IMG/VR virus record: IMGVR_UViG_3300014039_000016
Location: 136,829-150,460 of that record
Strand: one strand, 5' to 3'
DNA length: 13,632 nt
DNA from: a virus
The notes under the pieces were generated by a model. The model searched no databases, was not told the origin of the DNA, and worked only from the letters and a program-made list of their open reading frames with translations. Numbering within the stretch: the first letter of the stretch is position 1; every line of letters begins with the position of its first letter. Shown piece by piece: positions 519-13,632 of this stretch. The position numbers and the translations under genes are program-made.

Positions 519-590
519 GTTTGTATTTTATATAAAAAATATTTTATAATACTTAAATCACTTTGTCCAAAAATTTTTAAAATTCTTAAA

Positions 591-664: not shown

Positions 665-760
665 AAAACACAAGACACAGTTATCCACAAATATCTATTT
701 TAACAGAATAGGCTTATGAGCTAAATAAGTTGCTGTCTGTATCTTATTTATTATATAAAT

Positions 761-789
761 ATTATAACATATTTTTTTATAAAAATCAA
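761..789 (-). promoter_or_regulatory. sigma-A-type promoter, family A. -35 TTGATT, 17-nt spacer, -10 TGtTATAAT. Drives tRNA-CAT.
   Basis: Minus strand reads TTGATTTTTATAAAAAAATATGTTATAAT. It abuts the stop codon of CDS 790-1446. Confidence 0.7.
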
Positions 790-1446: not shown

Positions 1447-1455
1447 ACAACACCT

Positions 1456-1740: not shown

Positions 1741-1762
1741 TCCCGCACCTCCTTAAATTAAA

Positions 1763-2080: not shown

Positions 2081-2113
2081 ATCTTTTTATCTCCTTATCT
2101 TTATTACATATAT

Positions 2114-2142
2114 ATTATATCATAAAATTTTATAAAAATCAA
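2114..2142 (-). promoter_or_regulatory. sigma-A-type promoter, family B. -35 TTGATT, 17-nt spacer, -10 TGaTATAAT.
   Basis: Minus strand reads TTGATTTTTATAAAATTTTATGATATAAT, followed by the conserved leader ATATATGTAATAAAGATAAGGAGA. Confidence 0.7.
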
Positions 2143-3135: not shown

Positions 3136-3985
3136 CTATATCCTCTTTTCTTTTCTCTTTATATTCTAATCCTTTTTCTGCAAGTGACCTCGCAACATGT
3201 TCTGCGGCAATGCATATTTGACAACCTGAAGAAGTATATCCGCATCTTTTGTGACAATTTTTTCTAATCTGCCCGAAAGTAGGTATAATTGAAGAATTTA
3301 TTTCTATATTGTCCTCAGGATTGTAACCACTGATAATTAAATTTAGAGGACCTTTCCAGCTCTGTTCCTTATATATTTTATATAAAGTATTCTGTTTATC
3401 TACAGGACCAAAAAACTCCATAACATCAACACAATCTTCATAATATTTTACATCTTCTGGTCTAATAAAAAACTTAGTAATTGATTTAATGCCATCTGCT
3501 CGACTAACGCTGCTCTGTGCTACATTAGGAAACACTCTGATTTTAACCTTATTCTTGCAGATATCATATTTAATGTCAGATAGGAAAAAAGCAAGTTCAT
3601 CTGTTATATATACATCTGTAACGCCTTCAGATATATACTGATTTAGTGCATCTATTGTATTTACCTTTTCACAATAAAAGAAAGGAAGCTTATTTTCTTC
3701 TACTCTTCTCATACATTCAACTGTTCTTGATATCATAAAAGTTATATTAGGATGTATTTCATAGCACATTTTAAAAACATTAATTGTTTGTTTAAGTTCT
3801 ATAGTAATCATATGTGTAACATCCACCACAATTCTCAAATCTTGTCTTTTACTTTTTACAAAATCAATAAGCGCAGATGCGTACTTTGTAAGTATTGGAT
3901 ATTTATTAAAATCATATTTAATAATAATTTCCTGTATTTCATCTTCATATGCAAAACCTTTAAACCAATTTATAGCATAGTTCAT
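3122..3985 (-). CDS. Hypothetical protein, 287 aa, with a C-terminal Cys cluster (C-x3-C-x6-C-x2-C...H)
   Basis: ORF with an AAAGGAGA ribosome-binding site 9 nt upstream. Its end overlaps the start of the downstream gene. The C-terminal CHKRCGYTSSGCQIC cluster suggests metal binding. I recognise no fold. Confidence 0.6.
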   Translation of the reverse strand: MNYAINWFKGFAYEDEIQEIIIKYDFNKYPILTKYASALIDFVKSKRQDLRIVVDVTHMITIELKQTINVFKMCYEIHPNITFMISRTVECMRRVEENKLPFFYCEKVNTIDALNQYISEGVTDVYITDELAFFLSDIKYDICKNKVKIRVFPNVAQSSVSRADGIKSITKFFIRPEDVKYYEDCVDVMEFFGPVDKQNTLYKIYKEQSWKGPLNLIISGYNPEDNIEINSSIIPTFGQIRKNCHKRCGYTSSGCQICIAAEHVARSLAEKGLEYKEKRKEDIDDKE

Positions 3986-4012
3986 TTATCACATCTCCTT
4001 TAAGCTAAAATA

Positions 4013-4040
4013 GGGAAGAAAACATTTCTGCTTCCTTCCC
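4013..4040 (-). terminator. Weak hairpin plus T-tract between CDS 4060-4485 and CDS 3122-3985. Possible attenuator or partial terminator.
   Basis: GGGAAG(GAAG) pairs with CTTCC(C) in a hairpin, followed on the minus strand by TATTTTA. No promoter copy lies downstream, so read-through into gene 3122-3985 is expected. Confidence 0.3.
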
Positions 4041-4059
4041 TCAGAACTGAAATATTATA

Positions 4060-4485
4060 TTACTCTGCGTCAGTCTCTTCAGATACACCAGCCGCGAGTG
4101 CATATCCCATAACTCTACGAGTATCACGCTTTACCTGCTCCTTACGAGCTTCACCTATCTGAACTAGCTGTGAAAGTCTAGCACCAACCTTAGCCACTGT
4201 AAGCTCACCAGTTTCATCTGTAATCTGCTCAAAAATCTCATCTCTTGTCTGAAGCTCTTCTGTTAAAACCTTTTTAACAACCTCTCTAAGAGCATCTCCC
4301 TCAGCCGCCTTTTCTGCTGCCTTCTCCTTAGCTCTTTCCTTCTTAGCCTCAAGCTGCGCAACTGTACTATCAACATAATTAATCACATCAGAATCCTGAA
4401 CATCACCATCAAAAACCATATTTCCAATATTAGCCTTAATTGTTTCAAGAATCATTGCCTTTGTAATTTTAACTGTCTCTGCCAT
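4060..4485 (-). CDS. Hypothetical Ala/Glu/Lys-rich protein, about 141 aa
   Basis: ORF directly downstream of promoter 4530-4558. The AAGGAGAT ribosome-binding site favours the second ATG (MAETVK...). Local GC content of about 45% is noticeably above the rest of the window. The sequence is probably coiled-coil, for example AQLEAKKERAKEKAAEKAAEG. Confidence 0.6.
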   Translation of the reverse strand: MAETVKITKAMILETIKANIGNMVFDGDVQDSDVINYVDSTVAQLEAKKERAKEKAAEKAAEGDALREVVKKVLTEELQTRDEIFEQITDETGELTVAKVGARLSQLVQIGEARKEQVKRDTRRVMGYALAAGVSEETDAE

Positions 4486-4529
4486 AATCATTATCTCCTT
4501 TTTCTTATCTTTATCTTTATTACATATAT

Positions 4530-4558
4530 ATTATATCATAAAATTTTTAAGAAATCAA
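4530..4558 (-). promoter_or_regulatory. sigma-A-type promoter, family B. -35 TTGATT, 17-nt spacer, -10 TGaTATAAT.
   Basis: Minus strand reads TTGATTTCTTAAAAATTTTATGATATAAT, followed by the leader ATATATGTAATAAAGATAAAG. Confidence 0.7.
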
Positions 4559-4574
4559 TTATTCTTAAAAGTTC

Positions 4575-4617
4575 TATATATGTAAGAAAGAAGCTTTCTA
4601 TCTTTCTTACATATATA
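4575..4617 (-). terminator. 17-bp perfect inverted repeat with a 9-nt loop. Probable intrinsic terminator for the upstream operon, or an operator site.
   Basis: TATATATGTAAGAAAGA, then AGCTTTCTA, then TCTTTCTTACATATATA. On the minus strand it is followed by GAACTTTT. It sits between two tandem promoter copies, and its right arm overlaps the -10 and +1 of promoter 4617-4645. Confidence 0.45.
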
Positions 4618-4645
4618 TTATACCATAAAATTTTCTAAACTTCAA
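4617..4645 (-). promoter_or_regulatory. sigma-A-type promoter, family B copy. -35 TTGAAG, 17-nt spacer, -10 TGgTATAAT. It is embedded in the 3' end of CDS 4635-6626 and fires into the palindrome.
   Basis: Minus strand reads TTGAAGTTTAGAAAATTTTATGGTATAAT. The -35 lies within the last three codons of the 663-aa gene. Confidence 0.55.
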
Positions 4646-6626
4646 ATTTTTTAAGATTACTAAAGAAATATTTTTCAACTTCTTTTTCATCTACCTTCCC
4701 ATTATTAATAAAGGTCATTGAAGTTAATCTTGATTCATTAAATATACTACTAAGATAGTAGTAACTGTAAACATAACAATCTCTAATAAGCATCTCTTTT
4801 TTATGGTCTCTAAAATATCGTAAACATGCAGGACACATATAAAGAGGTTCTGCATTTCTGCCCTCTGGTAATAAACGAGTCTCATTAAATTCTGCTGCTT
4901 TAGGCGAAGTTCCTGCAGTGTTAGGCTTTAAATTTTCATAACAATATTTCAAATCCTTAAAACGATTCTCATATTCATAACTAATCTTGTTTTCATCTCT
5001 CCAAAAACCACAATTATACGCTTTTTGGTCAGCTTCTTTTTCTGTAAGCATATATTTCTTAACATCATCATCTTTTAAATAAAAAGCAGCAATATTCGAC
5101 TCTCTTTCTATAGGAGTTTCTCCTAAGAGAAAAGGCTTTCCGCAGCAAGGGCATATATAATAACCTTTAATGCAATTTCTACATCTCGTAACAGTGACAT
5201 CATCATTATAATCTTCATCCCATGAAGAATAATCAGAAATATCAAAAGTGAAAAGATTCTCAGGACCTACAAAATCTCCGCAATGTTCACATTTCTTAGT
5301 ATTGGAACATTCTTTACAGATTAAATCTTCCGTATTTTTATATCTATCATTCCAATCTGGCTCATCATAATCATCATGGTCAGTATCAAACTCAAGTAAT
5401 GGTTTTCCGCAACTAATACAGATAACAGGTCCTGATATATTAATCTTTCTAGTATGATGAATTGGATTGCGGACGCACCAATAACCATAATAGTTATCAT
5501 TACACATATCATTATACATAGCATTATTAGTAAAGTAAATCTTCTTTGGGATAAAGTTATTCCTATCCTTGCTATTCTCCAAATCTCTATCAATTATATA
5601 ATCATCAAGAGAATTAACATTAAGCATATCCTTATATGGCTCAATACCAAACTTATAAGTCCAACCAAGATTCTTTTCCGCCAATTCTCGGATAACTTCA
5701 ATTAACTTCTTGCTAAAAGTATCATTCTTATAAGGGTAAGACTTACCTGATACAACGATATCCTTATTAACAAAAAGTAAACTTCTCCATTTTTTATCAT
5801 TCCAAAAAGGATTGTCTTTAGCATCTGAATTATCAGATTCCAATCCCATCATTCTACTATTGCTTTCCAGATAACAACAGAGTGCATTATTAGAGTTCAT
5901 CATTTCATATGAACCAACCCTGTAACATCCGCTACGCTTCCACGACATGCAAGAAGACCAATCACTATTGTTATCACTCATAGTCATAAAGTCTAATGGG
6001 TGAATTGAAAAACAAAGATTACCCGCAAGTTCTTTCTCATTTAAAATGAGAGAAATCTTAATACGGACTTTCTCAAAGAAATCTATAATTTCCTTATCTG
6101 CGTTGCAATACTTTAATATTTTTCCAACAGCTCTGAATACTTTTGTCCCTGAAGGAATTTTTCTTTCCTTTAAAGACCCAGTATCATCAACTGGGCGCAG
6201 AAAAATATCATAATTCGTTAAATTATTAATTAATGCACGCTTTTCAAAGATATGGTCAAAAAGCGGCGGTATCCAATATCCGGCTTCATCAATACAGTGT
6301 CTTAAAGTGCTTAAAGCATCAACAGAATCCAAATAAACACTACATTCCTTTGCGATATCGTTTTCTGGTTTTTCATAATTAAATGGAATCTTGTAAATCA
6401 TCTGATTTCCAAGTAACTTATATAGAGTATTCTTACAAATACTCCACTTCTCAAGGAATTCTTTTAAAGGAATATACATTCCCTTATCTACTGGTGCGGC
6501 AATATAATCATTTATTTCATCAGACCAATGATTAATGCCATGAATACCCCATCTATAATAATACTCCGAAATCTTCTGAATATCTTCCTCCGTTAATTTT
6601 TCATATAAATCTATTCTTTCTTTCAT
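4635..6626 (-). CDS. Large hypothetical protein, 663 aa, with a multi-CxxC (zinc-ribbon-rich) C-terminal half
   Basis: Long uninterrupted ORF. Its start is coupled to the upstream gene (TAA-T-ATG) with an AAGGAG ribosome-binding site 11 nt upstream. It contains at least eight CxxC or CxC pairs, for example CISCGKP, CKECSNTKKCEHCG, CRNCIKGYYICPCCGKP and CPACLRY. I recognise no catalytic motif. Confidence 0.75.
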   Translation of the reverse strand: MKERIDLYEKLTEEDIQKISEYYYRWGIHGINHWSDEINDYIAAPVDKGMYIPLKEFLEKWSICKNTLYKLLGNQMIYKIPFNYEKPENDIAKECSVYLDSVDALSTLRHCIDEAGYWIPPLFDHIFEKRALINNLTNYDIFLRPVDDTGSLKERKIPSGTKVFRAVGKILKYCNADKEIIDFFEKVRIKISLILNEKELAGNLCFSIHPLDFMTMSDNNSDWSSCMSWKRSGCYRVGSYEMMNSNNALCCYLESNSRMMGLESDNSDAKDNPFWNDKKWRSLLFVNKDIVVSGKSYPYKNDTFSKKLIEVIRELAEKNLGWTYKFGIEPYKDMLNVNSLDDYIIDRDLENSKDRNNFIPKKIYFTNNAMYNDMCNDNYYGYWCVRNPIHHTRKINISGPVICISCGKPLLEFDTDHDDYDEPDWNDRYKNTEDLICKECSNTKKCEHCGDFVGPENLFTFDISDYSSWDEDYNDDVTVTRCRNCIKGYYICPCCGKPFLLGETPIERESNIAAFYLKDDDVKKYMLTEKEADQKAYNCGFWRDENKISYEYENRFKDLKYCYENLKPNTAGTSPKAAEFNETRLLPEGRNAEPLYMCPACLRYFRDHKKEMLIRDCYVYSYYYLSSIFNESRLTSMTFINNGKVDEKEVEKYFFSNLKKFEV

Positions 6627-6627
6627 A

Positions 6628-6840
6628 TTACATATAACTCCTTATTAAATTAACGACTCTGACTTTATCGTCCTCCATTAAATCAATATAAGCCTGATTA
6701 TCTACTATCTCCCCAATTAAAAGCTGCGGGTCCCGCCCTGCTTCTAGTGCCTGCTTACATTGACGCATTATTTCATTTGCATCATCATCGCTCTGCATAA
6801 TCATATAATCAAAGGCATCTCCCATTCCGAACATACTCAT
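6628..6840 (-). CDS. Small acidic protein, 70 aa, net charge about -8
   Basis: ORF coupled to the upstream gene through an ATGA overlap, with an AAGGAG ribosome-binding site. Asp/Glu-rich. Confidence 0.55.
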   Translation of the reverse strand: MSMFGMGDAFDYMIMQSDDDANEIMRQCKQALEAGRDPQLLIGEIVDNQAYIDLMEDDKVRVVNLIRSYM

Positions 6841-7196
6841 ACACCAAGCTCCTTTCCGCAGTACTCTTTAATGAAACTTTCATGTCCAAGATTACAAACA
6901 ATATTATCTAATTCATTAGTTTCCATATCCTTGTACTCATCTTTAATCTCATAAATGTTCCAATATAATTCCTCAGCTGAACCATCCCATTCTGGAAATT
7001 CTCCTGACTCTTCATTATAATCTGACTGAGACATCGCATATTCATCTTCAAGACCATAATTAGTAATAAGGTCATACGCCATTTCTTTACCCATAGCATT
7101 ACCTTCATCAAGAGAATTGATTTCAGTTACACACATGTCCTCAATTCCATGTAAACCCTGATACATTCCTTCAGTTGCGTAAATAAATACTTTCAT
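6837..7196 (-). CDS. Highly acidic protein, 119 aa, about 29 Asp/Glu against 6 Lys. Candidate DNA-mimic or anti-restriction protein.
   Basis: ORF with an AAGAGGT ribosome-binding site 7 nt upstream. It is the first gene after promoter 7229-7257. Its size and net charge of about -23 resemble Ocr/ArdA-type DNA mimics. This is a charge-based inference only. Confidence 0.6.
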   Translation of the reverse strand: MKVFIYATEGMYQGLHGIEDMCVTEINSLDEGNAMGKEMAYDLITNYGLEDEYAMSQSDYNEESGEFPEWDGSAEELYWNIYEIKDEYKDMETNELDNIVCNLGHESFIKEYCGKELGV

Positions 7197-7228
7197 AAAT
7201 CATACCTCTTTTCTTATTTTCTATATAT

Positions 7229-7257
7229 ATTATATCAAAAATTTTAAAAGAAATAAA
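7229..7257 (-). promoter_or_regulatory. sigma-A-type promoter, family B. -35 TTTATT, 17-nt spacer, -10 TGaTATAAT. Its -35 is formed by the U-tract of the upstream terminator.
   Basis: Minus strand reads TTTATTTCTTTTAAAATTTTTGATATAAT. Confidence 0.6.
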
Positions 7258-7280
7258 GCTGAGCTAAGTTACCCAGCTTT
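7255..7280 (-). terminator. Rho-independent terminator of the 7712-7279 operon
   Basis: 7-bp stem AAAGCTG/CAGCTTT with a 12-nt loop, followed on the minus strand by TTTATTTCTTTT. It overlaps the stop codon of CDS 7279-7500. Confidence 0.55.
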
Positions 7281-7500
7281 AATCATCAAAACCGTCATAG
7301 TAATCTTCATCATAGAATCCATCTTCATCATAATACCCATAAGCCATATAATCTTCATCATCATAGTCTTCGCGATAACATTCAGCTATCCACGGACAAT
7401 TTATACAGTTAGGACGGTCCGCGCAATTTTTACTCTGCTCTATATCTTCAGGTGGTCTCTTGGGATATTCACTAATCCTCTTTGCATCTATATCTTCCAT
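7279..7500 (-). CDS. Acidic protein, 73 aa, with a four-Cys motif and a D/E/Y low-complexity C-terminal tail
   Basis: The AGGAGGT ribosome-binding site is 6 nt upstream of the internal ATG (MEDIDAK...). The track's longer start would include that ribosome-binding site. The protein contains CADRPNCINCPWIAEC and the tail YREDYDDEDYMAYGYYDEDGFYDEDYYDGFDD. Confidence 0.55.
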   Translation of the reverse strand: MEDIDAKRISEYPKRPPEDIEQSKNCADRPNCINCPWIAECYREDYDDEDYMAYGYYDEDGFYDEDYYDGFDD

Positions 7501-7511
7501 AGTTATACCTC

Positions 7512-7712
7512 CTAACACATAATCATTGAATCAAGAATTGACTGCTCATGCATTTCCGCACATGATACAGAAGTTCCAACAGCTAAATCTTCAACATAGC
7601 AAACCTCGCCTAAGTGATTTACATACTGACCTGGTTCAAAAAACTTATCTGTAATTAAAGTATGTCTTGCTCCATTACCATTTACTAAAGTGTATTCAAA
7701 TACCATATGCAT
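7512..7712 (-). CDS. Small hypothetical protein, about 65-67 aa
   Basis: The track ORF runs up through the promoter. The real start is probably ATGCATATG (MHMVFEY...) downstream of the AGAGAGG ribosome-binding site. Confidence 0.45.
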   Translation of the reverse strand: MHMVFEYTLVNGNGARHTLITDKFFEPGQYVNHLGEVCYVEDLAVGTSVSCAEMHEQSILDSMIMC

Positions 7713-7740
7713 TACCTCTCTTTTCTTATTTTCTATATAT

Positions 7741-7769
7741 ATTATATCAAAAAATTTAAAAAATATCAA
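7741..7769 (-). promoter_or_regulatory. sigma-A-type promoter, family B. -35 TTGATA, 17-nt spacer, -10 TGaTATAAT.
   Basis: Minus strand reads TTGATATTTTTTAAATTTTTTGATATAAT. Confidence 0.65.
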
Positions 7770-8014
7770 TAGCGCACAGTAAGAATGTTAGTTGATACAT
7801 TATACGACCATGCAGCAACTAAAAACGCATTTTCATTTTCTACATACTGCGGCAATGTATATCTAATCTCCACGCCTTCTTTCTTAGCTGAGCCAAGCCC
7901 GCTCATTCTGTCTGTCTTAATTGGCACAAAACAGATGTGCATATCTGAAACCTGTACTGTTGACATGATATCTTCTACAAGAGAAGATAATATTGTTATT
8001 CTTTTTTCTATCAT
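7766..8014 (-). CDS. Hypothetical protein, 82 aa
   Basis: ORF. Its start codon directly abuts the stop of the upstream gene (TAATG). Confidence 0.5.
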   Translation of the reverse strand: MIEKRITILSSLVEDIMSTVQVSDMHICFVPIKTDRMSGLGSAKKEGVEIRYTLPQYVENENAFLVAAWSYNVSTNILTVRY

Positions 8015-8211
8015 TAATAATCATTCCTTTCATGTTTAGAATATTTTTCAAGCTTTCTGCGGCGATTGTCTACTCTTGCAGGTGCAGTTCCACGCTTAGG
8101 TAAGTACTTGCCGCAATGTTGACAAGCTTTTCTAAATGTTCCTTCTCTGCCTTTTGAGCATTGACCTTCACAAATATAATACTGACATATTATTTCTCTA
8201 TCTCTTGCCAT
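8015..8211 (-). CDS. Small basic zinc-ribbon protein, about 65 aa
   Basis: A GAGGT ribosome-binding site lies 7 nt upstream of the internal ATG (MARDREII...). It contains CQYYICEGQC...CQHCGK, then a Lys/Arg-rich tail. A nucleic-acid-binding role is possible. Confidence 0.5.
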
Positions 8212-8221
8212 TATAATTACC

Positions 8222-8680
8222 TCACTTTTCATATTTTTTTATTAAATCATTAGTTTCATCTTTGATAGGTGATAAAGGGTTATAGTCTTTATCCCACTTA
8301 ATCTCTAAATTAGTAATTATTCCTCTTAAACGATAACTATAAAATAAATAATCAAAATTCCAATATCCGCCATAAATTGCATCAGTATATAATACTTTAT
8401 ATCCTTGTACTTCATACTTCTCTAACAAGGTTAAAAATAAATCAAATTGTTTCTTATATTTTAAGTATTTTTTAGAGTTTTTATTTATCTCATATGAGAC
8501 ACCTCTATCAAATACTAATAAACGATTAATAAGGAGACTCTGCTCATTAATATCACAAGCTGAAAGAATTTCATTATCTATTTTTTTCTCCCATTTTTTC
8601 AGAAAATGCTTGTCTGCTCTTGTTAGAGTTACCTCACTATTTTCCTGAGATAATCTTTGTGCAGTATGTAGCGATATCAT
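8222..8680 (-). CDS. Hypothetical protein, 152 aa
   Basis: ORF with an AAGAGGTG ribosome-binding site. First gene after promoter 8714-8742. Confidence 0.6.
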   Translation of the reverse strand: MISLHTAQRLSQENSEVTLTRADKHFLKKWEKKIDNEILSACDINEQSLLINRLLVFDRGVSYEINKNSKKYLKYKKQFDLFLTLLEKYEVQGYKVLYTDAIYGGYWNFDYLFYSYRLRGIITNLEIKWDKDYNPLSPIKDETNDLIKKYEK

Positions 8681-8713
8681 ATTTATTCACCTCTTTCTCT
8701 TTTCTATATAAAT

Positions 8714-8742
8714 ATTATATCATATTTTTTTATAAAAATAAA
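8714..8742 (-). promoter_or_regulatory. sigma-A-type promoter, family A. -35 TTTATT from the terminator U-tract, 17-nt spacer, -10 TGaTATAAT.
   Basis: Minus strand reads TTTATTTTTATAAAAAAATATGATATAAT. Confidence 0.6.
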
Positions 8743-8763
8743 GGAGGCATAAAAGCCTCCTTT
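8740..8763 (-). terminator. Rho-independent terminator of the 10226-8773 operon
   Basis: 9-bp GC-rich stem AAAGGAGGC/GCCTCCTTT with a 6-nt loop, followed on the minus strand by TATTTTTAT. Confidence 0.65.
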
Positions 8764-8772
8764 CCGCACATT

Positions 8773-9150
8773 TTATTTAATGAATATTCTTAATATCTGT
8801 AGTATAATATTTAGTATACCCGCGATAATTAATAATAAATAAAAACAATTTATACTCTTGATTTCTTTTTTCTTGTCCTCTTTTTTCTCATAAACAAAAG
8901 ATAATATCAAAAAAATAACTGCTGCGAGTGCAAGACATAAAATTAAAATTGCTATAATCCAGAAAATAACTTTTAATACTAACAAGTGTCCTCCTTCCAC
9001 AGACTCTACTAAAGCTGAGAATCCTATAAAATATGTCCAAATCGCAAATAAAAAATCAAATATTCTTTCTCCTCGATTTTTTAAGATAACTGTTACTGCA
9101 ACACCTGCAATAAAAATTATAATACATGACAATTTTATCCAAAATTCCAT
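8773..9150 (-). CDS. Integral membrane protein, 125 aa, about four predicted TM helices
   Basis: ORF with an AAGGAGGT ribosome-binding site. Long hydrophobic stretches are separated by short charged loops. Confidence 0.6.
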   Translation of the reverse strand: MEFWIKLSCIIIFIAGVAVTVILKNRGERIFDFLFAIWTYFIGFSALVESVEGGHLLVLKVIFWIIAILILCLALAAVIFLILSFVYEKKEDKKKEIKSINCFYLLLIIAGILNIILQILRIFIK

Positions 9151-9163
9151 CTATTTTACCTCC

Positions 9164-9310
9164 TTAATCCATAAATGTAAAAAAACAATATAAAAACATG
9201 AAAATAAAAATTGTAACTAATAGAATTAAAGGTTTATTTATTATAACACAAAATACTATTATAGCAATAATAATTAGAGTTATAATTATTAATAATGTGC
9301 TATCGTCCAT
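9164..9310 (-). CDS. Small hydrophobic membrane peptide, 48 aa. Not in the ORF track.
   Basis: ATG preceded by an AAAGGAGT ribosome-binding site. Sequence is MDDSTLLIIITLIIIAIIVFCVIINKPLILLVTIFIFMFLYCFFTFMD. It packs tightly between its neighbours. Confidence 0.4.
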   Translation of the reverse strand: MDDSTLLIIITLIIIAIIVFCVIINKPLILLVTIFIFMFLYCFFTFMD

Positions 9311-9324
9311 AATCTATACTCCTT

Positions 9325-9498
9325 TTAATTTCCAACATAACCTAAACTAAAGCCCATTATAAACATTAATGAAGCTACTGCTAAACCAGTTGAGATTTTA
9401 TATACAATTTCATTTGTTGTTACACAACTTATGGTATAACAAATTAATAACATAATGATACTAATTATTATACCTATACCTAACGCCGCACTCTCCAT
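9325..9498 (-). CDS. Small hydrophobic membrane peptide, 57 aa. Not in the ORF track.
   Basis: ATG preceded by a GGGAGGT ribosome-binding site. Sequence is MESAALGIGIIISIIMLLICYTISCVTTNEIVYKISTGLAVASLMFIMGFSLGYVGN. Confidence 0.4.
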   Translation of the reverse strand: MESAALGIGIIISIIMLLICYTISCVTTNEIVYKISTGLAVASLMFIMGFSLGYVGN

Positions 9499-9521
9499 GT
9501 ATTTCTACAACCTCCCATAAA

Positions 9522-10226
9522 TTATAAATATTCATTCCAGCCTGAAAAGTCAAGAATAATAGGGTCGCCATTTTCTCTGAAACCAATATTACCATTATGT
9601 AAATCTTCAACTACATTAGGAAATTCACTTTCTAAGAAGTCAATAAGTTTATCAACCATAGCCTTTCCATATCTTTCAATAGCAGCAGCAACCCATGAAG
9701 AATCTGCAAAACAATAATATTTTGAATCTGAATTAACAAAATTTAATGTTTCATCTTCTGAGACAGGACAATATTCATAGAAGTCTAATACTCTTTCCTG
9801 TTTGATAACAGTACCAGACTCACATTCTCCCATAATCTCTGTTTTTGGGAAAAAGATATCTAAACCATTCTCTTTTGCAGCTTCATAAACCTCATATTCT
9901 GTTAAACAATAGTCCCAACCTCGGTCCTCAGAATTGTCTGCGCCTCTAAATCTTGTAAAATAATCGTGGTCTACTGATTCATCATAATCCCACTTACCAG
10001 AATAAGGAACTTTGAGAACAGAGCTGCAGCCGGAAACAACAGCAACAGCCTTAGTTGCACCACGATATGCGCCGCCTGCAATCTTAGCATCTTTTAAAGC
10101 TTCTGAAATTAAAATTGTATTTTCTTCATCATCTTCATCATCGTCCCAGCCAAATTTCTCAGGAACTTTCTTTACAATTTCATTAAACACTTTTGTTAAT
10201 TTATCTTCTAATAATAATGTTGCCAT
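9522..10226 (-). CDS. Hypothetical protein, 234 aa, with an acidic N-terminal region
   Basis: ORF with an AAGAGGT ribosome-binding site. First gene after promoter 10262-10290. Confidence 0.65.
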   Translation of the reverse strand: MATLLLEDKLTKVFNEIVKKVPEKFGWDDDEDDEENTILISEALKDAKIAGGAYRGATKAVAVVSGCSSVLKVPYSGKWDYDESVDHDYFTRFRGADNSEDRGWDYCLTEYEVYEAAKENGLDIFFPKTEIMGECESGTVIKQERVLDFYEYCPVSEDETLNFVNSDSKYYCFADSSWVAAAIERYGKAMVDKLIDFLESEFPNVVEDLHNGNIGFRENGDPIILDFSGWNEYL

Positions 10227-10261
10227 ATTTATATACCTCTTTTCCTTTTCTTTATATAAAT

Positions 10262-10290
10262 ATTATAACATAATTTTTTACAAAAATAAA
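10262..10290 (-). promoter_or_regulatory. sigma-A-type promoter, family A. -35 TTTATT, 17-nt spacer, -10 TGtTATAAT.
   Basis: Minus strand reads TTTATTTTTGTAAAAAATTATGTTATAAT. Confidence 0.6.
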
Positions 10291-10311
10291 GCGGAGTATA
10301 GGACCCCGCTT
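10289..10311 (-). terminator. Rho-independent terminator of the 11373-10310 operon
   Basis: 6-7-bp stem AAGCGG/CCGCTT followed on the minus strand by TTTATTTTTG. It overlaps the stop codon of CDS 10310-10828. Confidence 0.5.
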
Positions 10312-10828
10312 AGTCTATCTTAAATTGAAAATCTCCGCCACTTTCATCAAGGTAATCATCTATTGATACATTAGGGTTTATTCTCTCAAGGACTTTGTCT
10401 GTATGAGAGCGAGAAAGAGAAATAAGTGCTTTTTTATTAGCTTTTGTGCGGCAAGTGGTACAAATACAATCACCAAAAGTAGCTATAGCTGTTGGAGTAA
10501 ATTCATATACATAATTAAAATCTCTTCCGTTATGCATCTTATTCTTATGTTCATCATACCACTTTTTTATTGATTCTTTCTCTTTTTCATTTACCGTAAA
10601 AGACTGATTTAAGATTTTTCTTAATCTATCAATTTCACTTTTCAATTTAGCAAGCTCCGCGTCTTTATAATGTTCGCTCTTGAGAGACTTGTTTTCCGCA
10701 ATTAACTCATCATTTTCTTTTAAAAGTCTTTTCATATTCCATTCAAGCTGAAAAAGAGATTCATCTACTTCTTTTTCTGTGCTTATAATTTTAATAGGAT
10801 TATCTTCAATATAACATATTCCCGCCAT
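10310..10828 (-). CDS. Hypothetical coiled-coil protein, 172 aa, with a C-terminal CxC..C motif. Paralogue of the upstream gene.
   Basis: ORF. Its start overlaps the stop of the upstream gene (TAATG), with a GGAAGGAG ribosome-binding site. It has an N-terminal heptad-rich region and the motif FGDCICTTCRTKA. Confidence 0.6.
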   Translation of the reverse strand: MAGICYIEDNPIKIISTEKEVDESLFQLEWNMKRLLKENDELIAENKSLKSEHYKDAELAKLKSEIDRLRKILNQSFTVNEKEKESIKKWYDEHKNKMHNGRDFNYVYEFTPTAIATFGDCICTTCRTKANKKALISLSRSHTDKVLERINPNVSIDDYLDESGGDFQFKID

Positions 10829-11373
10829 TATTCTTCTCCTTCCCAGGGGTATTTAGTTACTCTATATGAAACACCCTTCTTCCGCATTAATTCTAAAAGC
10901 TCATCATAGTTTAAATCTCTATGATTATTATATAATATCTTTGCACATTTAGCACAATAGCAAGTAGCTTCAGTTCCATTAATACCTGGTTTAAATACGA
11001 AGAATCTGTCTTTTGGTTTTAGGGGCGATTCTTTACGCTCTTGTATGTGCGCTTCCTCTCTATGATGCTGCCACCATTCTGTTATTCCGTAATTCTCATA
11101 TGTTGAAATAGTGAAGCTATTATAGTAACGCTCCTTATATTCTGCTAATTCTGCTTGTGTTTGAAGAAGGTCTTCTTTCAATTTCTTTATCTCTTCATTC
11201 TTATAAAGTTCTTCATCTAAGTTATTTACATAATTGCGCATTTCTAAAACTCTATCTTTAAGAGTGTTAAGACTTTCTGCGGTGTTGTTAAATGCTTCAT
11301 CAATAGTAGGTTTCTGCTCTTTCGTAAATAAGTCCTTTACTTTTTTACATTTGTTTAAATCATATGTCTCCAT
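10829..11373 (-). CDS. Hypothetical coiled-coil protein, 181 aa, with a C-terminal CxC..C motif
   Basis: ORF with a TAGGAGGA ribosome-binding site 7 nt upstream. It has an N-terminal coiled coil and the motif TEATCYCAKCAKI. Confidence 0.6.
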
Positions 11374-11404
11374 AAAATATTCCTCCTATTGTTTTTCTAC
11401 ATAA

Positions 11405-11433
11405 ATTATATCATATTTTTTTATAAAAATCAA
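11405..11433 (-). promoter_or_regulatory. sigma-A-type promoter, family A. -35 TTGATT, 17-nt spacer, -10 TGaTATAAT.
   Basis: Minus strand reads TTGATTTTTATAAAAAAATATGATATAAT. A short GC hairpin (AGCGGCGAAGCGCT) lies just upstream. Confidence 0.7.
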
Positions 11434-11568
11434 GCGGCGAAGCGCTCTTTAAAGAAACTTGTAGGGACCTATCATGAATTTTATAGACCCAACAGCCGCA
11501 GCAAGAAAAATAAGGCTTAATTGGAGAAAACGAAGGATTTCTGTATTTCCGAACAAAAGCGATTATCT

Positions 11569-11595
11569 GCAAGTGAAAATGTAGAAATCCACTTG
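11569..11595. promoter_or_regulatory. Inverted-repeat operator candidate (CAAGTG, 14-nt spacer, CACTTG) overlapping the -35 of the rightward promoter
   Basis: Perfect 6-bp half-sites. The right half shares bases with the TTGAAA -35 element. Confidence 0.35.
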
Positions 11596-11621
11596 AAAAA
11601 AAAGAAAAAATTTGATATAAT
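11593..11621 (+). promoter_or_regulatory. Rightward sigma-A-type promoter. -35 TTGAAA, 17-nt spacer, -10 TGaTATAAT.
   Basis: Plus strand reads TTGAAAAAAAAGAAAAAATTTGATATAAT. It is divergent from the leftward promoter at 11405-11433. Confidence 0.7.
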
Positions 11622-11645
11622 ATTATTGTAAGGAGGAATTAAAGA

Positions 11646-11819
11646 ATGATTATTGTTTGTGATATAAATTGTAAGTATAGAAATTCCAATGGCTTTTGTA
11701 CAAAAGACATTGTTCATATAGATAATAAATGTATTTGTAATGAAATGTATAAACCAACAGAGAAGATTGAGCGGAAACCGCAGATTGGTGAAACTTTAAT
11801 CTTGACTGAAGAAACTTAA
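11646..11819 (+). CDS. Small Cys-rich protein, 57 aa. Not in the supplied ORF track.
   Basis: An AAGGAGG ribosome-binding site lies 9 nt upstream of the ATG. Sequence is MIIVCDINCKYRNSNGFCTKDIVHIDNKCICNEMYKPTEKIERKPQIGETLILTEET. It is the first gene after a strong promoter. Confidence 0.5.
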   Translation: MIIVCDINCKYRNSNGFCTKDIVHIDNKCICNEMYKPTEKIERKPQIGETLILTEET

Positions 11820-11833
11820 AGGAGGGTTTCCGC

Positions 11834-12037
11834 GTGACATTAGAAGAATTAGCAGAAGAATTGGGTGTGAAACCTAATTATTTAAGAAAAAGATTTCAAG
11901 ATGTTAAAAAGAATAGAGAAAAGATAGGTATAATTATTGAAAAAGTAGGAAGAGCGGCTTCCGCGGAATATGGTATAAAAACATGGTATGATAGTGAAAT
12001 TAGATATGAGCATCTTGACCCAGATGATTTTGAATAA
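11834..12037 (+). CDS. Small HTH DNA-binding protein, 67 aa, GTG start
   Basis: An AAGGAGGG ribosome-binding site lies 8 nt upstream of the GTG. It has a helix-turn-helix-like segment LEELAEELGVKPNYLRKRF. It is paralogous to the N-terminus of the 260-aa protein. Confidence 0.6.
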   Translation: MTLEELAEELGVKPNYLRKRFQDVKKNREKIGIIIEKVGRAASAEYGIKTWYDSEIRYEHLDPDDFE

Positions 12038-12051
12038 AAAGGAGAAAATAA

Positions 12052-12294
12052 ATGAGTAACAAAAGAACAGTAAAGGAGATATTAACTCCTAATGAATATA
12101 TGGCATATGAAGCAATTTTAAAGAAATTGGTTCAAGGAGAACAAACTTGTGTAAATGTTTCACAGTTTGCAGATGAAATACACCTTTCCCGCACAAGTAT
12201 TAGTAGTATGTTAAAGAAGTTAGATTTGATTGGTGTTTTTGAAGTTAAAAGTGCGGGAATGAGAGGAACTTATATCAAGTTTTTACCTAATTAA
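12052..12294 (+). CDS. Winged-HTH-type small regulator, 80 aa
   Basis: An AAAGGAGA ribosome-binding site lies 8 nt upstream. It has an HTH-like segment VSQFADEIHLSRTSISSMLKKLDLIGV. Confidence 0.6.
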   Translation: MSNKRTVKEILTPNEYMAYEAILKKLVQGEQTCVNVSQFADEIHLSRTSISSMLKKLDLIGVFEVKSAGMRGTYIKFLPN

Positions 12295-12307
12295 AGAAAA
12301 TATTACT

Positions 12308-12400
12308 TTGGATTTTCAAATGAGAATGAGAATGAGAGGATTAATAAGATTGGAGCGAAGCGGAAATCTTTTAATCCCGAATTCTCATTTGAAAATCCAA
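12308..12400. repeat. About 93-nt near-perfect hairpin. The outer inverted repeat is 20 bp and perfect. The inner inverted repeat is 14 bp with one mismatch. The loop is 13 nt. One arm carries a (TGAGAA)3 tandem bulge.
   Basis: TTGGATTTTCAAATGAGAAT at 12308-12327 is the exact reverse complement of 12381-12400. The inner pair is GGATTAATAAGATT against AATCTTTTAATCC. Confidence 0.6.
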
Positions 12401-12408
12401 GACTTAGA

Positions 12409-12440
12409 GATGCGAACTTGTTCGCATCGACTTTATATAA
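12409..12440 (+). terminator. Rho-independent terminator for the rightward HTH operon
   Basis: 8-bp stem GATGCGAA/TTCGCATC with a CTTG tetraloop, followed by GACTTTATATAA. Confidence 0.5.
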
Positions 12441-12504
12441 AGAGTATTGAGTTTTTAAATTATTTATATCTAGGAAGTTAAAAGTTCAATACTCTTTATA
12501 TAAA
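12432..12504. repeat. 19-bp perfect inverted repeat with a 35-nt spacer. Candidate operator or origin element.
   Basis: TTTATATAAAGAGTATTGA at 12432-12450 is the reverse complement of 12486-12504. Confidence 0.55.
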
Positions 12505-12592
12505 AAATGGAAAAAGTGTCACCAATTTTTAACTTTCAGAAGAATAATCATTTAAAATTGTGACATTTTTATATAAAGGAGAGTAACATATA

Positions 12593-13375
12593 ATGAATAT
12601 AAAAGAAGTAAGTGAAGCTTTAGGAATTGCGGAATCTACATTAAAAAATAATTATAGAAGAACTGCGGAAAGTTTATTAAAGAAAGGTATTATTTTAAAT
12701 AAAGAAGGAAGGGGCATTTCCGCAGAATATACAATAGAATATGATATGAGTTTTAAAGATAATAGAGCTTTAACTATATTTGATGAAAAGAAAGAAATAT
12801 ATTTACAAGATGATATGTTAAAGATGATAGATTGGAATCTCTTGATATTAGTAGGAGTTTGTTTAACGCCTTTGTTAACTTTTAGAGGAAGTTATAAAGA
12901 TTTTTTAAATTATGTTGGAGTATTACCATCTGCCGCGAATATTAATAAGTTAAAGGAAGTATTAGTTGAAATGGATGCTGATTATATTGGTTATTATCCT
13001 GATAAAACAGATGAACAATATTTTACCGCGTCTTTATATAGGAGTGTTGAGAAGAAATATAAGGTTTCAATTATTAAGTTGCGGAAATGTAAAGAAATTC
13101 AAGAAAAATATCATGGAAGAAGCTTCATTCCGCTATTGAAAACTTGGTTAGCTACTGAAGAAGCAGTAAAGAATCAACCTTATACTATTGATGATTTGAT
13201 TGAATTGACAGGATTATCTAAGAGTACTATTGTTAAAGCTAATAGGCAGTTAAGAGATGAAAATGTTTATAGGTCAGAGAAAGATTATATTCCGGAGATG
13301 AAAATATGCCGAGGGGTAAATACTGATATCAATGGATTTTTTGATGAAATCCCAACAGATTTACCTAGAAAATGA
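12593..13375 (+). CDS. 260-aa protein with N-terminal and C-terminal HTH-like segments. Putative regulator or replication initiator.
   Basis: An AAAGGAGAG ribosome-binding site lies 10 nt upstream. Its first 50 residues are paralogous to the 67-aa HTH protein, including the shared pattern LG..L....GII..K.GR..SAEY.I. The C-terminus carries LIELTGLSKSTIVKANRQL. It is flanked by palindromes upstream and iterons downstream. Confidence 0.65.
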   Translation: MNIKEVSEALGIAESTLKNNYRRTAESLLKKGIILNKEGRGISAEYTIEYDMSFKDNRALTIFDEKKEIYLQDDMLKMIDWNLLILVGVCLTPLLTFRGSYKDFLNYVGVLPSAANINKLKEVLVEMDADYIGYYPDKTDEQYFTASLYRSVEKKYKVSIIKLRKCKEIQEKYHGRSFIPLLKTWLATEEAVKNQPYTIDDLIELTGLSKSTIVKANRQLRDENVYRSEKDYIPEMKICRGVNTDINGFFDEIPTDLPRK

Positions 13376-13376
13376 A

Positions 13377-13422
13377 TTTTAACTTACCTATATATAAGTA
13401 TATATATATTGGTAAGTTAAAA
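13377..13422 (+). terminator. 12-bp AT-rich inverted repeat with a 22-nt alternating AT loop. Weak terminator or cruciform.
   Basis: TTTTAACTTACC, then TATATATAAGTATATATATATT, then GGTAAGTTAAAA. No clear U-tract follows. Confidence 0.3.
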
Positions 13423-13457
13423 TATAAAAAATGAATGAATCTGTTGGGATTTTAGAT

Positions 13458-13570
13458 AAATGTATTAAAATAGAGACTGTGTATTATTTTAATTAAATTG
13501 TATTAAAAAGGGGCTGTGATGTTTGTTTTAATAAAAATGTATTAAAATGCAATAAAATAGGGGTTGTGTA
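13458..13570 (+). repeat. Three direct repeats (iteron-like), consensus TGTATTAAAA, 2-14 nt, GRGRYTGTG, spaced 37-50 bp apart
   Basis: TGTATTAAAA occurs at 13461, 13499 and 13538. Each is followed by GAGACTGTG, GGGGCTGTG or GGGGTTGTG respectively. Confidence 0.5.
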
Positions 13571-13586
13571 GTTTAATTACTTATTT

Positions 13587-13613
13587 ATATATATATATAT
13601 ATATATATATTAT
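13587..13613. repeat. (AT)13 dinucleotide tract. Candidate DNA-unwinding element.
   Basis: 27 nt of uninterrupted alternating AT lie next to the iteron-like repeats at the window edge. Confidence 0.6.
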
Positions 13614-13632
13614 TTTTATTAAAATATGACAA

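What the first reader, a model, noticed from the sequence alone, without database searches (positions are those of the whole stretch)
12295..12592. Densely structured 300-bp intergenic region: 93-nt near-perfect hairpin with (TGAGAA)3 slippage, terminator, 19-bp palindrome
Upstream of the 260-aa HTH gene there are three consecutive symmetric elements. The first is a roughly 93-nt hairpin whose outer 20-bp arms are perfect and whose inner 14-bp arms have one mismatch. Its left arm carries three tandem TGAGAA units that look like replication slippage. The second is a terminator hairpin with a CTTG loop. The third is a 19-bp perfect inverted repeat with a 35-nt spacer. A weaker inverted repeat GTGTCACC/GTGACAT overlaps the gene's promoter. 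The structure is too large and too perfect for a simple terminator. It could be a cruciform origin or a single-strand-initiation element. It could be an operator array for the two-HTH protein. It could also be a structured antisense or decoy RNA. The loop motif GCGAAGCG also occurs once next to the divergent promoter at 11447.
Basis: seen in the sequence. Interest (0 to 1): 0.6.

Follow-up and report, generated by a model that had tools for sequence, protein, structure and literature searches.

The report
Phage terminator hairpins plus operator region
This crowded 300-bp gap between two phage genes is most likely two ordinary things side by side: the hairpin-and-terminator end of one operon, and the palindrome-rich promoter/operator region of a swappable DNA-binding-protein gene. 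The one unexplained detail is a 19-base hairpin tip that also recurs in unrelated environmental DNA.

Summary
Window 12295-12592 holds four consecutive inverted repeats and folds far better than shuffles (RNA z=-9.3, DNA z=-11.7).

The window comes from a ~150-kb, 31% GC phage found in several metagenomes. A relative, L160, shows that the region has two modules.

**Module A (12308-12436).**
- It holds the 93-nt hairpin 1 and the terminator-like hairpin 2.
- It travels with the upstream early operon (57-, 67- and 80-aa genes).
- Four alleles all fold alike. Two carry compensatory double substitutions, the TGAGAA copy number varies, and the apex never varies.

**Module B (about 12437-13343).**
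- It holds hairpin 3, the GTGTCAC/GTGACA repeat, a weak promoter and the 260-aa multi-winged-helix gene.
- In L160 this cassette is replaced by an unrelated gene that has its own GTGAC palindrome array.

**Best reading.** Module A is a 3'-UTR stem-loop plus intrinsic terminator. Module B is a promoter/operator array. An origin-like structure (nested inverted repeat, ~38-bp repeats, (TA)n) lies downstream of the gene, not in the finding.

**Unexplained.** The 19-nt apex, with its GCGAAGC mini-hairpin, equals the core of a dispersed repeat in environmental contigs. Nothing shown departs from known kinds of element. Interest is low to moderate.

The parts
11593..11621 (+). Strong sigma-70-type promoter (TTGAAA-17-TGaTATAAT) of the upstream early operon: genes 11646-11819, 11834-12037 and 12052-12294.
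   Evidence: 11 of 12 matches, TG present. It fits the phage promoter consensus seen.
12308..12400 (+). Hairpin 1. It has a 20-bp outer stem (12308-12327 / 12381-12400) and an internal loop carrying the (AATGAG)3.2 slippage tract (12319-12337). The inner stem has 13 bp plus one bulge (12338-12351 / 12365-12377). The apex has a GGA/GGA internal loop and a GCGAAGC cap.
   Evidence: Four alleles fold alike and two carry compensatory double changes. It is inherited with the upstream operon in L160.
12350..12368 (+). The invariant 19-nt apex TTGGAGCGAAGCGGAAATC, with GCGAAGC at 12355-12361. It is identical to the commonest core of a dispersed repeat in environmental contigs.
   Evidence: It is invariant in all alleles. 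There are at least 120 exact hits in metagenome contigs, in 113 distinct contexts. No Rfam family matches.
12409..12436 (+). Hairpin 2: an intrinsic-terminator-like stem-loop (GATGCGAA-CTTG-TTCGCATC) plus a GAC-TTTAT tail. It marks the right-hand end of module A.
   Evidence: It is identical in every allele, including L160. Homology with L160 ends just after it.
12432..12504 (.). Hairpin 3: 30-nt arms (12432-12461 / 12475-12504). Its outer ends are two copies of the 12-bp palindrome CTTTATATAAAG.
   Evidence: (I1). It is present only where the 260-aa cassette is present and is absent in L160.
12567..12578 (.). The third copy of the CTTTATATAAAG palindrome (TTTTATATAAAG). It overlaps the ribosome-binding site AAGGAG (12576-12581). 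The copies start at 12431, 12494 and 12567, so they are spaced 63 and 73 bp apart.
   Evidence: 6 matches with at most 1 mismatch in the window against 0.21 expected, and 3 of them lie here. The same motif follows the -10 box of other promoters of this phage.
12512..12570 (.). IR4: AAAAGTGTCAC..(31 nt)..GTGACATTTTT (arms 12512-12528 / 12554-12570). The arms flank a -35-like TTAACT (12529-12534). The right arm overlaps an extended -10-like TGtGACATT (12559-12567).
   Evidence: (I7). L001 has a T-to-C change that makes the repeat perfect. L039 lacks the right arm. L160 has three copies of the related site TTGTGACTCTTTTTATA.
12593..13375 (+). The 260-aa protein: three winged-helix-like domains. 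Its N-terminal domain is a paralogue of the 67-aa protein encoded upstream.
12437..13343 (+). The swappable cassette: hairpin 3, IR4, the promoter and the 260-aa gene. In relative L160 it is replaced by an unrelated 239-aa gene with its own palindromes.
   Evidence: and the identity profile: 90-100% up to 12450 (82% across the variable hairpin-1 stem), about 40-80% to 13350, then 100%.
13347..13610 (.). Origin-like region outside the finding. It has an outer inverted repeat AAATCCCAACAGATT (13347-13361 / 13438-13452) around an ACTTACC...GGTAAGT palindrome (13376-13423). After these come ~38-bp direct repeats x2.5 (13449-13548) and (TA)14.5 (13582-13610).
   Evidence: The palindrome is conserved in sequence across relatives whose homologue of the 260-aa protein is about 35-65% identical. 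It is retained in L160.

Best explanation
The 298-bp gap is a composite of two independent units that abut at about 12436.

**Unit A (12308-12436): the 3' end of the early operon that encodes three small proteins, two of them HTH proteins.**
- Transcription from the strong promoter at 11593 runs through the 80-aa gene. It then copies hairpin 1 into the 3' UTR and ends at hairpin 2, a GC-rich stem followed by TTTAT.
- I infer that hairpin 1 works as RNA, as a long and very stable stem-loop capped by GCGAAGC. It would protect the operon's 3' end from exonucleases. With about 20 bp of double-stranded RNA it may also serve as an RNase III-type processing site.
- Its stem is constrained only to pair. 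Its apex is constrained in sequence.

**Unit B (12431-12592): the promoter/operator region of a swappable cassette gene (the 260-aa multi-winged-helix protein).**
- A weak extended -10-like promoter (TGtGACATT) is bracketed by the GTGTCAC/GTGACA inverted repeat.
- Upstream of it lie three copies of the palindrome CTTTATATAAAG, about 6 and 7 helical turns apart.
- I infer that these are binding sites for dimeric HTH proteins. Candidates are the 67-aa protein (a free-standing paralogue of the 260-aa protein's N-terminal domain), the 260-aa protein itself, and the 80-aa CodY-type HTH protein. Binding would hold the cassette gene under repression or autoregulation.

**Shown:** the structures, the module boundary, the allele pattern and the motif statistics.
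**Inferred:** transcription end points, RNA-level action and protein binding.
For: **Structure and significance**
-.

**Module boundary**
- L160 keeps the operon and hairpins 1 and 2, then diverges completely until 13344. Across the operon it is 84-100% identical in 50-bp windows (11401-12300), and hairpin 2 is unchanged.

**Hairpin 1**
- It starts 13 nt after the stop codon and lies 8 nt before hairpin 2.
- Hairpin 2 resembles the phage's other terminators, which have a GC-rich stem followed by TTTAT....
- Four alleles fold identically. G12311-C12397 becomes A-T in L160. C12317-G12391 becomes A-T in L039. G12401-to-A lengthens the stem. The 43-nt apex has no change at all, while the outer stem has several.
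- A second, unrelated viral contig (L183) has the same GGA-GCGAAGC-GGA cap on a different stem. It too begins about 13 nt after the stop codon of a small ORF, on the sense strand.
- The same phage drives two small hairpin-plus-terminator units that begin with CCGGCGAAGCCGG from full promoters. GCGAAGC-capped hairpins therefore lie in predicted transcribed units of this phage.

**Unit B**
- CTTTATATAAAG: 6 hits against 0.21 expected, 3 of them here.
- GTGAC-core sites recur in both cassettes.
- The 67-aa protein is 38% identical to residues 1-48 of the 260-aa protein (E=6e-9).
- Nearly every relative carries its own short inverted repeat just upstream of the homologous gene.
Against: - There are no transcript data, so the operon's 3' end and the cassette promoter are predictions only.
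- Hairpin 2 has a weak T tract (GAC-TTTATAT).
- The - strand RNA folds almost as well as the + strand (-86.5 against -89.8 kcal/mol), so strand and molecule type are not resolved.
- Compensatory changes in a quasi-palindrome can arise by template switching without selection (PMC7202029). The outer stem is also a slippage hotspot.
- L039 lacks the proposed promoter and the right operator arm, yet keeps an intact gene.
- The CTTTATATAAAG motif also follows the -10 box of other promoters, so it may be promoter-derived sequence rather than an operator.
- No binding specificity is known for any of the three proteins.
Confidence: 0.45

Rival explanations
1. DNA-level replication element. Hairpin 1, hairpin 3 or both extrude as cruciforms, or fold on single-stranded DNA, and act as a priming or loading signal or as a hairpin promoter. 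The GCGAAGC mini-hairpin would nucleate folding. On this view they form part of an origin region that surrounds the 260-aa gene.
For: - d(GCGAAGC)-type mini-hairpins are unusually stable. They occur at phage G4 and RSF1010 ssiA priming sites and in N4 hairpin promoters (PMC13037366).
- The DNA fold z-score is -11.7.
- An origin-like array lies 800 bp away.
- Cumulative GC skew reaches its minimum near 11400.
Against: - Hairpin 1 is inherited with the upstream operon, not with the 260-aa gene.
- The origin-like array is retained in L160 even though that phage has an unrelated gene in place of the 260-aa gene. The 260-aa protein is therefore not obviously the array's cognate initiator.
- The outer inverted-repeat motif of that array does not occur in the finding.
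- The fold matches are generic winged-helix proteins.
- The skew minimum coincides with a switch in gene orientation.
- Relatives with homologues no more than 65% identical lack these hairpins.
Confidence: 0.13
2. Hairpin 1 is a selfish or neutral palindrome with no function for the phage. It would be either a REP/REPIN- or MITE-like element picked up from a host, or a quasi-palindrome built and kept symmetrical by replication slippage and template switching.
For: - The 19-nt apex equals the core of a dispersed repeat family in environmental contigs. That family is mostly intergenic (93 of 124) and shows no consistent orientation relative to flanking ORFs. This behaviour matches REP/REPIN elements (PMC3116915).
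- The size, about 93 nt, is typical of REPINs.
- The outer stem is the most variable stretch of the locus. It differs by complex multi-base changes and a 6-nt slippage unit, the signature of quasi-palindrome mutagenesis (PMC7202029).
- It is absent from relatives with homologues no more than 65% identical.
Against: - There is a single copy per ~145-kb phage genome.
- The phage flanks do not match the family's conserved flanks (cnTG...CCG).
- No target-site duplication is evident.
- The apex is invariant across all alleles while the stem keeps pairing, which fits selection.
- The same cap recurs in the same position relative to a gene in an unrelated phage.
Confidence: 0.2
3. The whole region, hairpin 1 included, is one double-stranded-DNA operator array for the locally encoded HTH proteins. 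The long palindromes are paired half-sites rather than folded structures.
For: - Three HTH proteins are encoded immediately around the region.
- The 80-aa protein has a CodY-type HTH that scores above the Pfam threshold (37.2 bits against 27).
- Hairpin 1's arms contain GATTTTC/GAAAATC, which is half of a CodY box. A 12-of-15 CodY-box match lies at 12531-12545.
Against: - CodY-box-like matches are only weakly enriched (10 against 4.8 expected; 6 of 200 shuffles do as well).
- TTGGATTTT is not enriched.
- Hairpin 1's half-sites change in both arms at once, while the upstream proteins are nearly identical between the window and L160. That fits pairing better than protein recognition.
- Half-sites 73 bp apart are not a normal operator geometry.
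Confidence: 0.12
4. The hairpins belong to an antisense or small regulatory RNA. It would be made from promoter-like sequences inside hairpin 3 or IR4 and run leftward across the operon's 3' end.
For: - Both arms of hairpin 3 and of IR4 resemble degenerate copies of the phage promoter consensus, facing outward.
- The - strand RNA also folds very stably.
- The phage does encode small promoter-plus-hairpin-plus-terminator units elsewhere.
Against: - No - strand promoter in 12295-12592 passes even the permissive scan.
- There is no T tract after any of the hairpins on the - strand.
- No Rfam family matches.
Confidence: 0.07

Closest known systems
Intrinsic (Rho-independent) terminators preceded by stabilising or processing 3'-UTR stem-loops. 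An example is the RNase III-processed intercistronic hairpins of phage T7 and SP82 early mRNAs (recalled from my own knowledge, not checked here).
   Same: - A long, imperfect stem of about 20 bp or more with an internal loop lies just after a stop codon.
- It is followed by a GC-rich stem and T tract.
- The stem keeps pairing through compensatory changes.
   Different: - No cleavage or 3'-end data exist.
- The terminator's T tract is weak.
- The apex is sequence-invariant and carries a GCGAAGC cap, which is not a feature of known RNase III sites.
Promoter-overlapping operator arrays of phage regulatory genes and of iteron-plasmid rep genes, where inverted repeats give autorepression.
   Same: - Palindromes bracket and overlap the promoter of a DNA-binding-protein gene.
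- Several sites are spaced by whole helical turns.
- Relatives each have their own inverted repeat in the same place.
   Different: - The binding protein is unknown.
- In the window lineage, the upstream repeat motif is not the one repeated in the downstream origin-like array. In relatives such as L011 and L031 it is the same motif.
Mini-hairpin-containing single-strand initiation signals and hairpin promoters: G4 origin, RSF1010 ssiA, N4 early promoters (PMC13037366).
   Same: - A GCGAAGC-type GNA mini-hairpin sits at the tip of a larger hairpin in a phage.
   Different: - The element lies in a transcribed 3' UTR position and is linked to an operon rather than to a replication gene.
- No primase or virion RNA polymerase link was tested.
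REP/REPIN elements mobilised by RAYT transposases (PMC3116915, PMC3337134).
   Same: - It is a hairpin of about 90 nt made of two inverted arms.
- Its apex is identical to the core of a dispersed repeat family that is mostly intergenic and shows no consistent orientation.
   Different: - It is single-copy in the phage.
- Its flanks differ from the family consensus.
- No RAYT was looked for or found.

Membership tests
Intrinsic terminator (hairpin 2) | A GC-rich stem of 5-14 bp with a 3-8-nt loop, on the coding strand just after a gene. | tested here: met
   8 bp with 4 G-C pairs and loop CTTG. It lies 114 nt after the stop codon of the 80-aa gene.
Intrinsic terminator (hairpin 2) | A run of T immediately after the stem. 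| tested here: inconclusive
   The tail is GACTTTATAT. It passes the scan's criterion of 5 T in 8. It is weaker than the TTTATTTTT tails of the phage's other terminators.
Intrinsic terminator (hairpins 1 and 3) | A T tract after the stem. | tested here: not met
   Hairpin 1 is followed by GACTTAGAG and hairpin 3 by AAAATGG. Neither is reported by the scan.
RNase III-type processing stem | About two turns (20 bp or more) of mostly uninterrupted double-stranded RNA within a transcript. | tested here: met
   20 perfect pairs in the window allele and 19-20 with one or two bulges in the others. Whether it is transcribed is inferred from position only.
RNase III-type processing stem | Cleavage by RNase III. 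| not testable with these tools
   This needs in vitro cleavage or 5'/3'-end mapping.
Iteron-type replication origin with Rep_3-family initiator | The initiator belongs to the Rep_3 / tandem WH1-WH2 family. | tested here: inconclusive
   - Rep3_N hits are sub-threshold in 9 of 16 family members, best E=1e-5.
- Foldseek finds only multi-winged-helix proteins at low TM-score.
- The PDB sequence profile search finds nothing.
Iteron-type replication origin with Rep_3-family initiator | Direct repeats (iterons) and an AT-rich unwinding element inside the feature. | tested here: not met
   Within 12295-12592 there are none apart from the 6-nt slippage tract. They exist downstream, at 13449-13610.
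REP/REPIN | Many copies per genome. | tested here: not met
   There is one copy of the arm and of the apex in each of the 147-kb and 145-kb phage contigs.
REP/REPIN | An associated RAYT transposase. | not tested
   The host is unknown. No such gene lies among the window ORFs scanned.
Any curated RNA family (Rfam 15) | A score at or above the family's gathering threshold. | tested here: not met
   Only the two tRNAs in the window reach threshold. In 12200-12700 only microRNA-precursor models match, far below threshold.
Mini-hairpin single-strand initiation signal / N4-type hairpin promoter | A GNA-loop mini-hairpin (GCGNAGC) at the tip of a DNA hairpin. | tested here: met
   GCGAAGC at 12355-12361, at the apex. 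The motif definition comes from PMC13037366.
Mini-hairpin single-strand initiation signal / N4-type hairpin promoter | Recognition by a primase or virion RNA polymerase, or initiation at the site. | not testable with these tools
   This needs biochemistry or end mapping.

The most novel reading that the evidence does not exclude
The invariant apex of hairpin 1 is a short stem, a GGA/GGA internal loop and a GCGAAGC cap. It could be a discrete recognition module for some widespread factor, or a mobile hairpin element. The same module is found in at least two unrelated phages, each time just after a small gene, and in a large undescribed repeat family of environmental bacteria. If so, the 93-nt hairpin would be a new kind of cis element, RNA or single-stranded DNA, rather than a generic stabiliser.
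Probability: 0.12. Interest if true: 0.65.

Novelty: new member of a known kind. Interest (0 to 1): 0.3.

Why it matters
- The result turns a puzzling cluster of palindromes into a testable map. It separates an operon 3' end, the control region of a swappable regulator cassette, and an origin-like region further downstream, in an uncultured ~150-kb gut-type phage whose genes are almost all of unknown function.
- It shows that structured elements mark the edges of a mosaic exchange point.
- It flags a 19-nt GCGAAGC-capped module shared with an undescribed environmental repeat family. If that module proves to be a recognition element, it would be of wider interest.
- Otherwise the region is ordinary phage regulatory DNA.

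Tried and rejected
**Known families and similar sequences**
- Rfam, at gathering and permissive thresholds, on the window and on environmental loci: nothing relevant.
- BLAST of 11400-13632, and of hairpins 1-2 alone, against phage and plasmid collections: only chance fragments.
- Literature search for the apex sequence: nothing.

**The 19-mer apex**
- Idea that it is a tRNA 3' end: ARAGORN finds no tRNA in 12 environmental loci.
- The 15-mer GGAGCGAAGCGGAAA in viral contigs gives about 100 hits, roughly the number chance would give, mostly in coding regions. Only L183 shares the hairpin context.

**Hairpin 3**
- An 18-mer from one arm has 6 other viral hits, all in unrelated coding contexts. 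These are chance matches.

**Shared motifs**
- TTGGATTTT as a motif linking hairpin 1 to the downstream array: not enriched (18 against 12.6 expected).
- The outer inverted-repeat motif ATCCCAACAGAT as an upstream operator: absent upstream.
- CodY-box enrichment: marginal.

**Other tests**
- Comparing + and - strand RNA folding to choose the transcribed strand: no discrimination.
- Assigning the 260-aa protein to a replication-initiator family: inconclusive.
- The 57-aa TTG ORF at 12308-12481 is not called in any public contig and lies across the hairpins, so I treated it as spurious.
- L037's 80-aa upstream gene is not a homologue of the window's. That locus therefore cannot test whether relatives keep both the flanks and the hairpins.

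Full report
**What is there.** Window 12295-12592 is the 298-bp gap between an 80-aa gene (12052-12294) and a 260-aa gene (12593-13375), both on the + strand. It holds four inverted repeats in a row.
- Hairpin 1 spans 12308-12400. It has 20-nt perfect outer arms and an inner stem of 13 pairs plus one bulged T. An (AATGAG)3.2 tract lies in the left arm and internal loop.
- Hairpin 2 spans 12409-12428 and is terminator-like, with a CTTG loop.
- Hairpin 3 has 30-nt arms (12432-12461 / 12475-12504) that are 90% complementary.
- The fourth repeat (IR4) has 17-nt arms at 82% (12512-12528 / 12554-12570).

The region folds at -89.8 kcal/mol as RNA, against -48.9 +/- 4.4 for shuffles (z=-9.3). As DNA, z=-11.7. 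The other gaps in this genome contain one ordinary terminator each.

**Where the window comes from.** The 260-aa protein is encoded, identical in sequence, on 15 public contigs. These include 147-151-kb contigs from several metagenomes and one IMG/VR viral contig. The window is 31% GC and carries two tRNAs and mostly unannotatable genes. It is a ~150-kb uncultured phage.

**The region is two modules.** A second 145-kb viral contig, L160, keeps the 57-, 67- and 80-aa genes. It also keeps hairpins 1 and 2.
- Just after hairpin 2 (about 12437) L160 becomes unalignable. It carries an unrelated 239-aa gene with its own repeats.
- It becomes 100% identical again from about 13344.
- Hairpins 1 and 2 are therefore the tail of the upstream operon.
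- Hairpin 3, the fourth repeat, the promoter and the 260-aa gene form a swappable cassette.

**Module A.** Hairpin 1 starts 13 nt after the stop codon and ends 8 nt before hairpin 2. Hairpin 2 has a GC-rich stem and a TTTAT tail, like the phage's other terminators but with a weaker T tract.

Four alleles of hairpin 1 exist: the window type, L004/L001, L039 and L160.
- All fold into the same shape.
- L160 changes G12311-C12397 to A-T.
- L039 changes C12317-G12391 to A-T.
- A G-to-A change at 12401 lengthens the stem.
- The window allele has one extra 6-nt unit.
- The 43-nt apex (12338-12380) and hairpin 2 never vary.

A stem that changes fast yet keeps pairing, under an invariant tip, fits a folded nucleic acid whose tip is what matters. 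Its position argues that it is transcribed as a 3' UTR. I therefore favour an RNA stem-loop that stabilises or processes the operon mRNA, followed by its terminator.

Three caveats apply.
- Quasi-palindromes can make 'compensatory' changes by template switching alone (PMC7202029).
- The - strand folds nearly as well as the + strand.
- There are no transcript data.

**Module B.** The 12-bp palindrome CTTTATATAAAG occurs three times in 150 bp, starting at 12431, 12494 and 12567 (spacing 63 and 73 bp).
- It has 6 hits in the window against 0.21 expected.
- Two of the copies are the outer ends of hairpin 3. The third overlaps the ribosome-binding site.
- The same motif follows the -10 box of several of this phage's promoters, whose consensus is TGnTATAAT-ATTTATATAAAG.

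The 260-aa gene has only a degenerate version of that promoter, TGtGACATT. It is bracketed by the GTGTCAC/GTGACA repeat.
- L160's replacement cassette has three copies of TTGTGACTCTTTTTATA in alternating orientation.
- So GTGAC-core palindromes are a feature of this site whichever gene sits there.

The 260-aa protein is predicted to have three winged-helix-like domains.
- The 67-aa protein of the upstream operon is a paralogue of its first domain.
- The 80-aa protein has a CodY-type HTH.

An operator array read by these proteins is the most economical reading, but it is inferred. One 97% relative (L039) has lost 19 bp, including the right arm and the proposed promoter.

**More distant relatives.** Fifteen homologues (33-97% identical) and about 25 loci were examined.
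- None with a homologue no more than 65% identical has these hairpins.
- Nearly all have a short inverted repeat of their own just upstream of the gene.
- Many repeat the same half-site downstream, around a palindrome conserved in sequence (ACTTACCGAT...ATCGGTAAGT).

In the window that downstream structure is at 13347-13452. It is followed by ~38-bp direct repeats and (TA)14.5. This is the origin-like part of the locus, and it lies outside the finding. Whether the 260-aa protein is a replication initiator is unresolved. L160 keeps the array with a different gene.

**The odd detail.** The apex 19-mer TTGGAGCGAAGCGGAAATC (12350-12368) contains GCGAAGC, a mini-hairpin sequence of the GCGNAGC type. 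Such motifs are known to be exceptionally stable as DNA and occur at some phage priming sites and hairpin promoters (PMC13037366).
- The exact 19-mer has at least 120 hits in metagenome contigs, in 113 different GC-rich contexts.
- In those contexts it is usually followed by CCG, a variable hairpin and CGGGG. The hits are mostly intergenic and show no consistent orientation relative to flanking ORFs.
- That looks like a REP/REPIN-type family (PMC3116915), but it is not in Rfam and was not found in the papers searched.
- The phage's flanks do not match the family's flanks, and the phage has a single copy.
- An unrelated 42-kb viral contig (L183) has the same GGA-GCGAAGC-GGA cap on a different stem, again just after a small gene.
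- Descent, convergence on a stable cap, or a shared recognition module all remain open.

**Verdict.** The only real loose end is the recurring 19-nt cap.

Noticed in passing
window 1-13632: - CCGC/GCGG is strongly over-represented: 71 sites against 15.5 in dinucleotide shuffles, and 71 of 219 CpGs.
- GCGGAA is also over-represented: 21 against 2.1.
- In the minus-strand gene block all 11 GCGGAA copies lie on the coding strand. Many are GCG (Ala) codons followed by G.
- The cause is unknown.
   Followed up: partly
window 13347-13632: Origin-like architecture downstream of the 260-aa gene.
- A perfect 15-nt outer inverted repeat surrounds an AT-centred palindrome that is conserved in sequence across distant relatives.
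- After it come ~38-bp direct repeats x2.5 and a (TA)n run whose length differs between assemblies.
- Several public contigs end in this region.
   Followed up: partly
L160 (IMGVR_UViG_3300045988_145100) 300-1830, against window 12437-13343: Cassette exchange. An unrelated 239-aa gene with its own palindromes replaces the 260-aa gene between conserved flanks.
   Followed up: yes
window 11834-12037 and 12593-12736: The 67-aa protein is a free-standing paralogue of the first winged-helix domain of the 260-aa protein: 38% identity over 48 residues, E=6e-9.
   Followed up: yes
L014, L017, L019, L020 (TGA); L021, L026 (TAG), inside the homologues of the 260-aa gene: - Some related phages have in-frame stop codons in this gene while the match continues beyond them.
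- In L017, TGA sits at the position of a conserved Trp.
- This suggests stop-codon recoding in parts of this phage group.
   Followed up: no
L002 12320-12395 and 15262-15335 (same phage, beyond the window): Two small units, each with a full TTGACA-17-TGnTAnAAT promoter. The promoter is followed within about 10 nt by CCGGCGAAGCCGG, then a second hairpin and a T run. They look like ~45-nt small RNAs or decoy transcripts.
   Followed up: partly
L040-L159 (environmental metagenome contigs): - A dispersed intergenic repeat family with the core (G)TTGGAGCGAAGCGGAAATCCCG, then a variable hairpin and CGGGG.
- It is often arranged in tandem or inverted and is often flanked by heptamer tandem repeats.
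- It is not in Rfam and was not found in the literature searched.
   Followed up: partly
L183 (IMGVR_UViG_3300002056_000009) 7886-7930: An unrelated 42-kb viral contig carries CTGAAATT-GGA-GCGAAGC-GGA-AATTTTCAG. It begins about 13 nt after the stop codon of a 61-aa ORF, on the sense strand. This is the same cap and the same placement as hairpin 1.
   Followed up: partly
window 4492-4634: The gap upstream of the 143-aa gene holds two near-identical copies of a promoter block (AAAATTTTATGrTATAATATATATGTAAkAAAGA). It also holds a 17-bp perfect palindrome pair at 4514-4617.
   Followed up: no
window 283-311, 490-518, 2114-2142, 4530-4558, 4617-4645, 10227-10309, 11405-11433, 11593-11621: The phage's promoters share an extended -10 box followed by a conserved AT-rich block: TGnTATAAT-AT(T/A)TATAT(A/G)(A/T)A. 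Each gap is laid out as terminator, promoter, ribosome-binding site within about 80-90 nt.
   Followed up: partly
window 12052-12294 and 12531-12545: The 80-aa protein consists of little more than a CodY-type HTH (Pfam 37.2 bits against a cut-off of 27). A 12-of-15 match to the CodY box lies in the cassette promoter, but such matches are only marginally enriched in the window.
   Followed up: partly
L039 1600-1660 (97% relative): A 19-bp deletion removes TTGTGACATTTTTATATAA, the right arm of the fourth repeat and the proposed promoter. The gene itself stays intact.
   Followed up: partly
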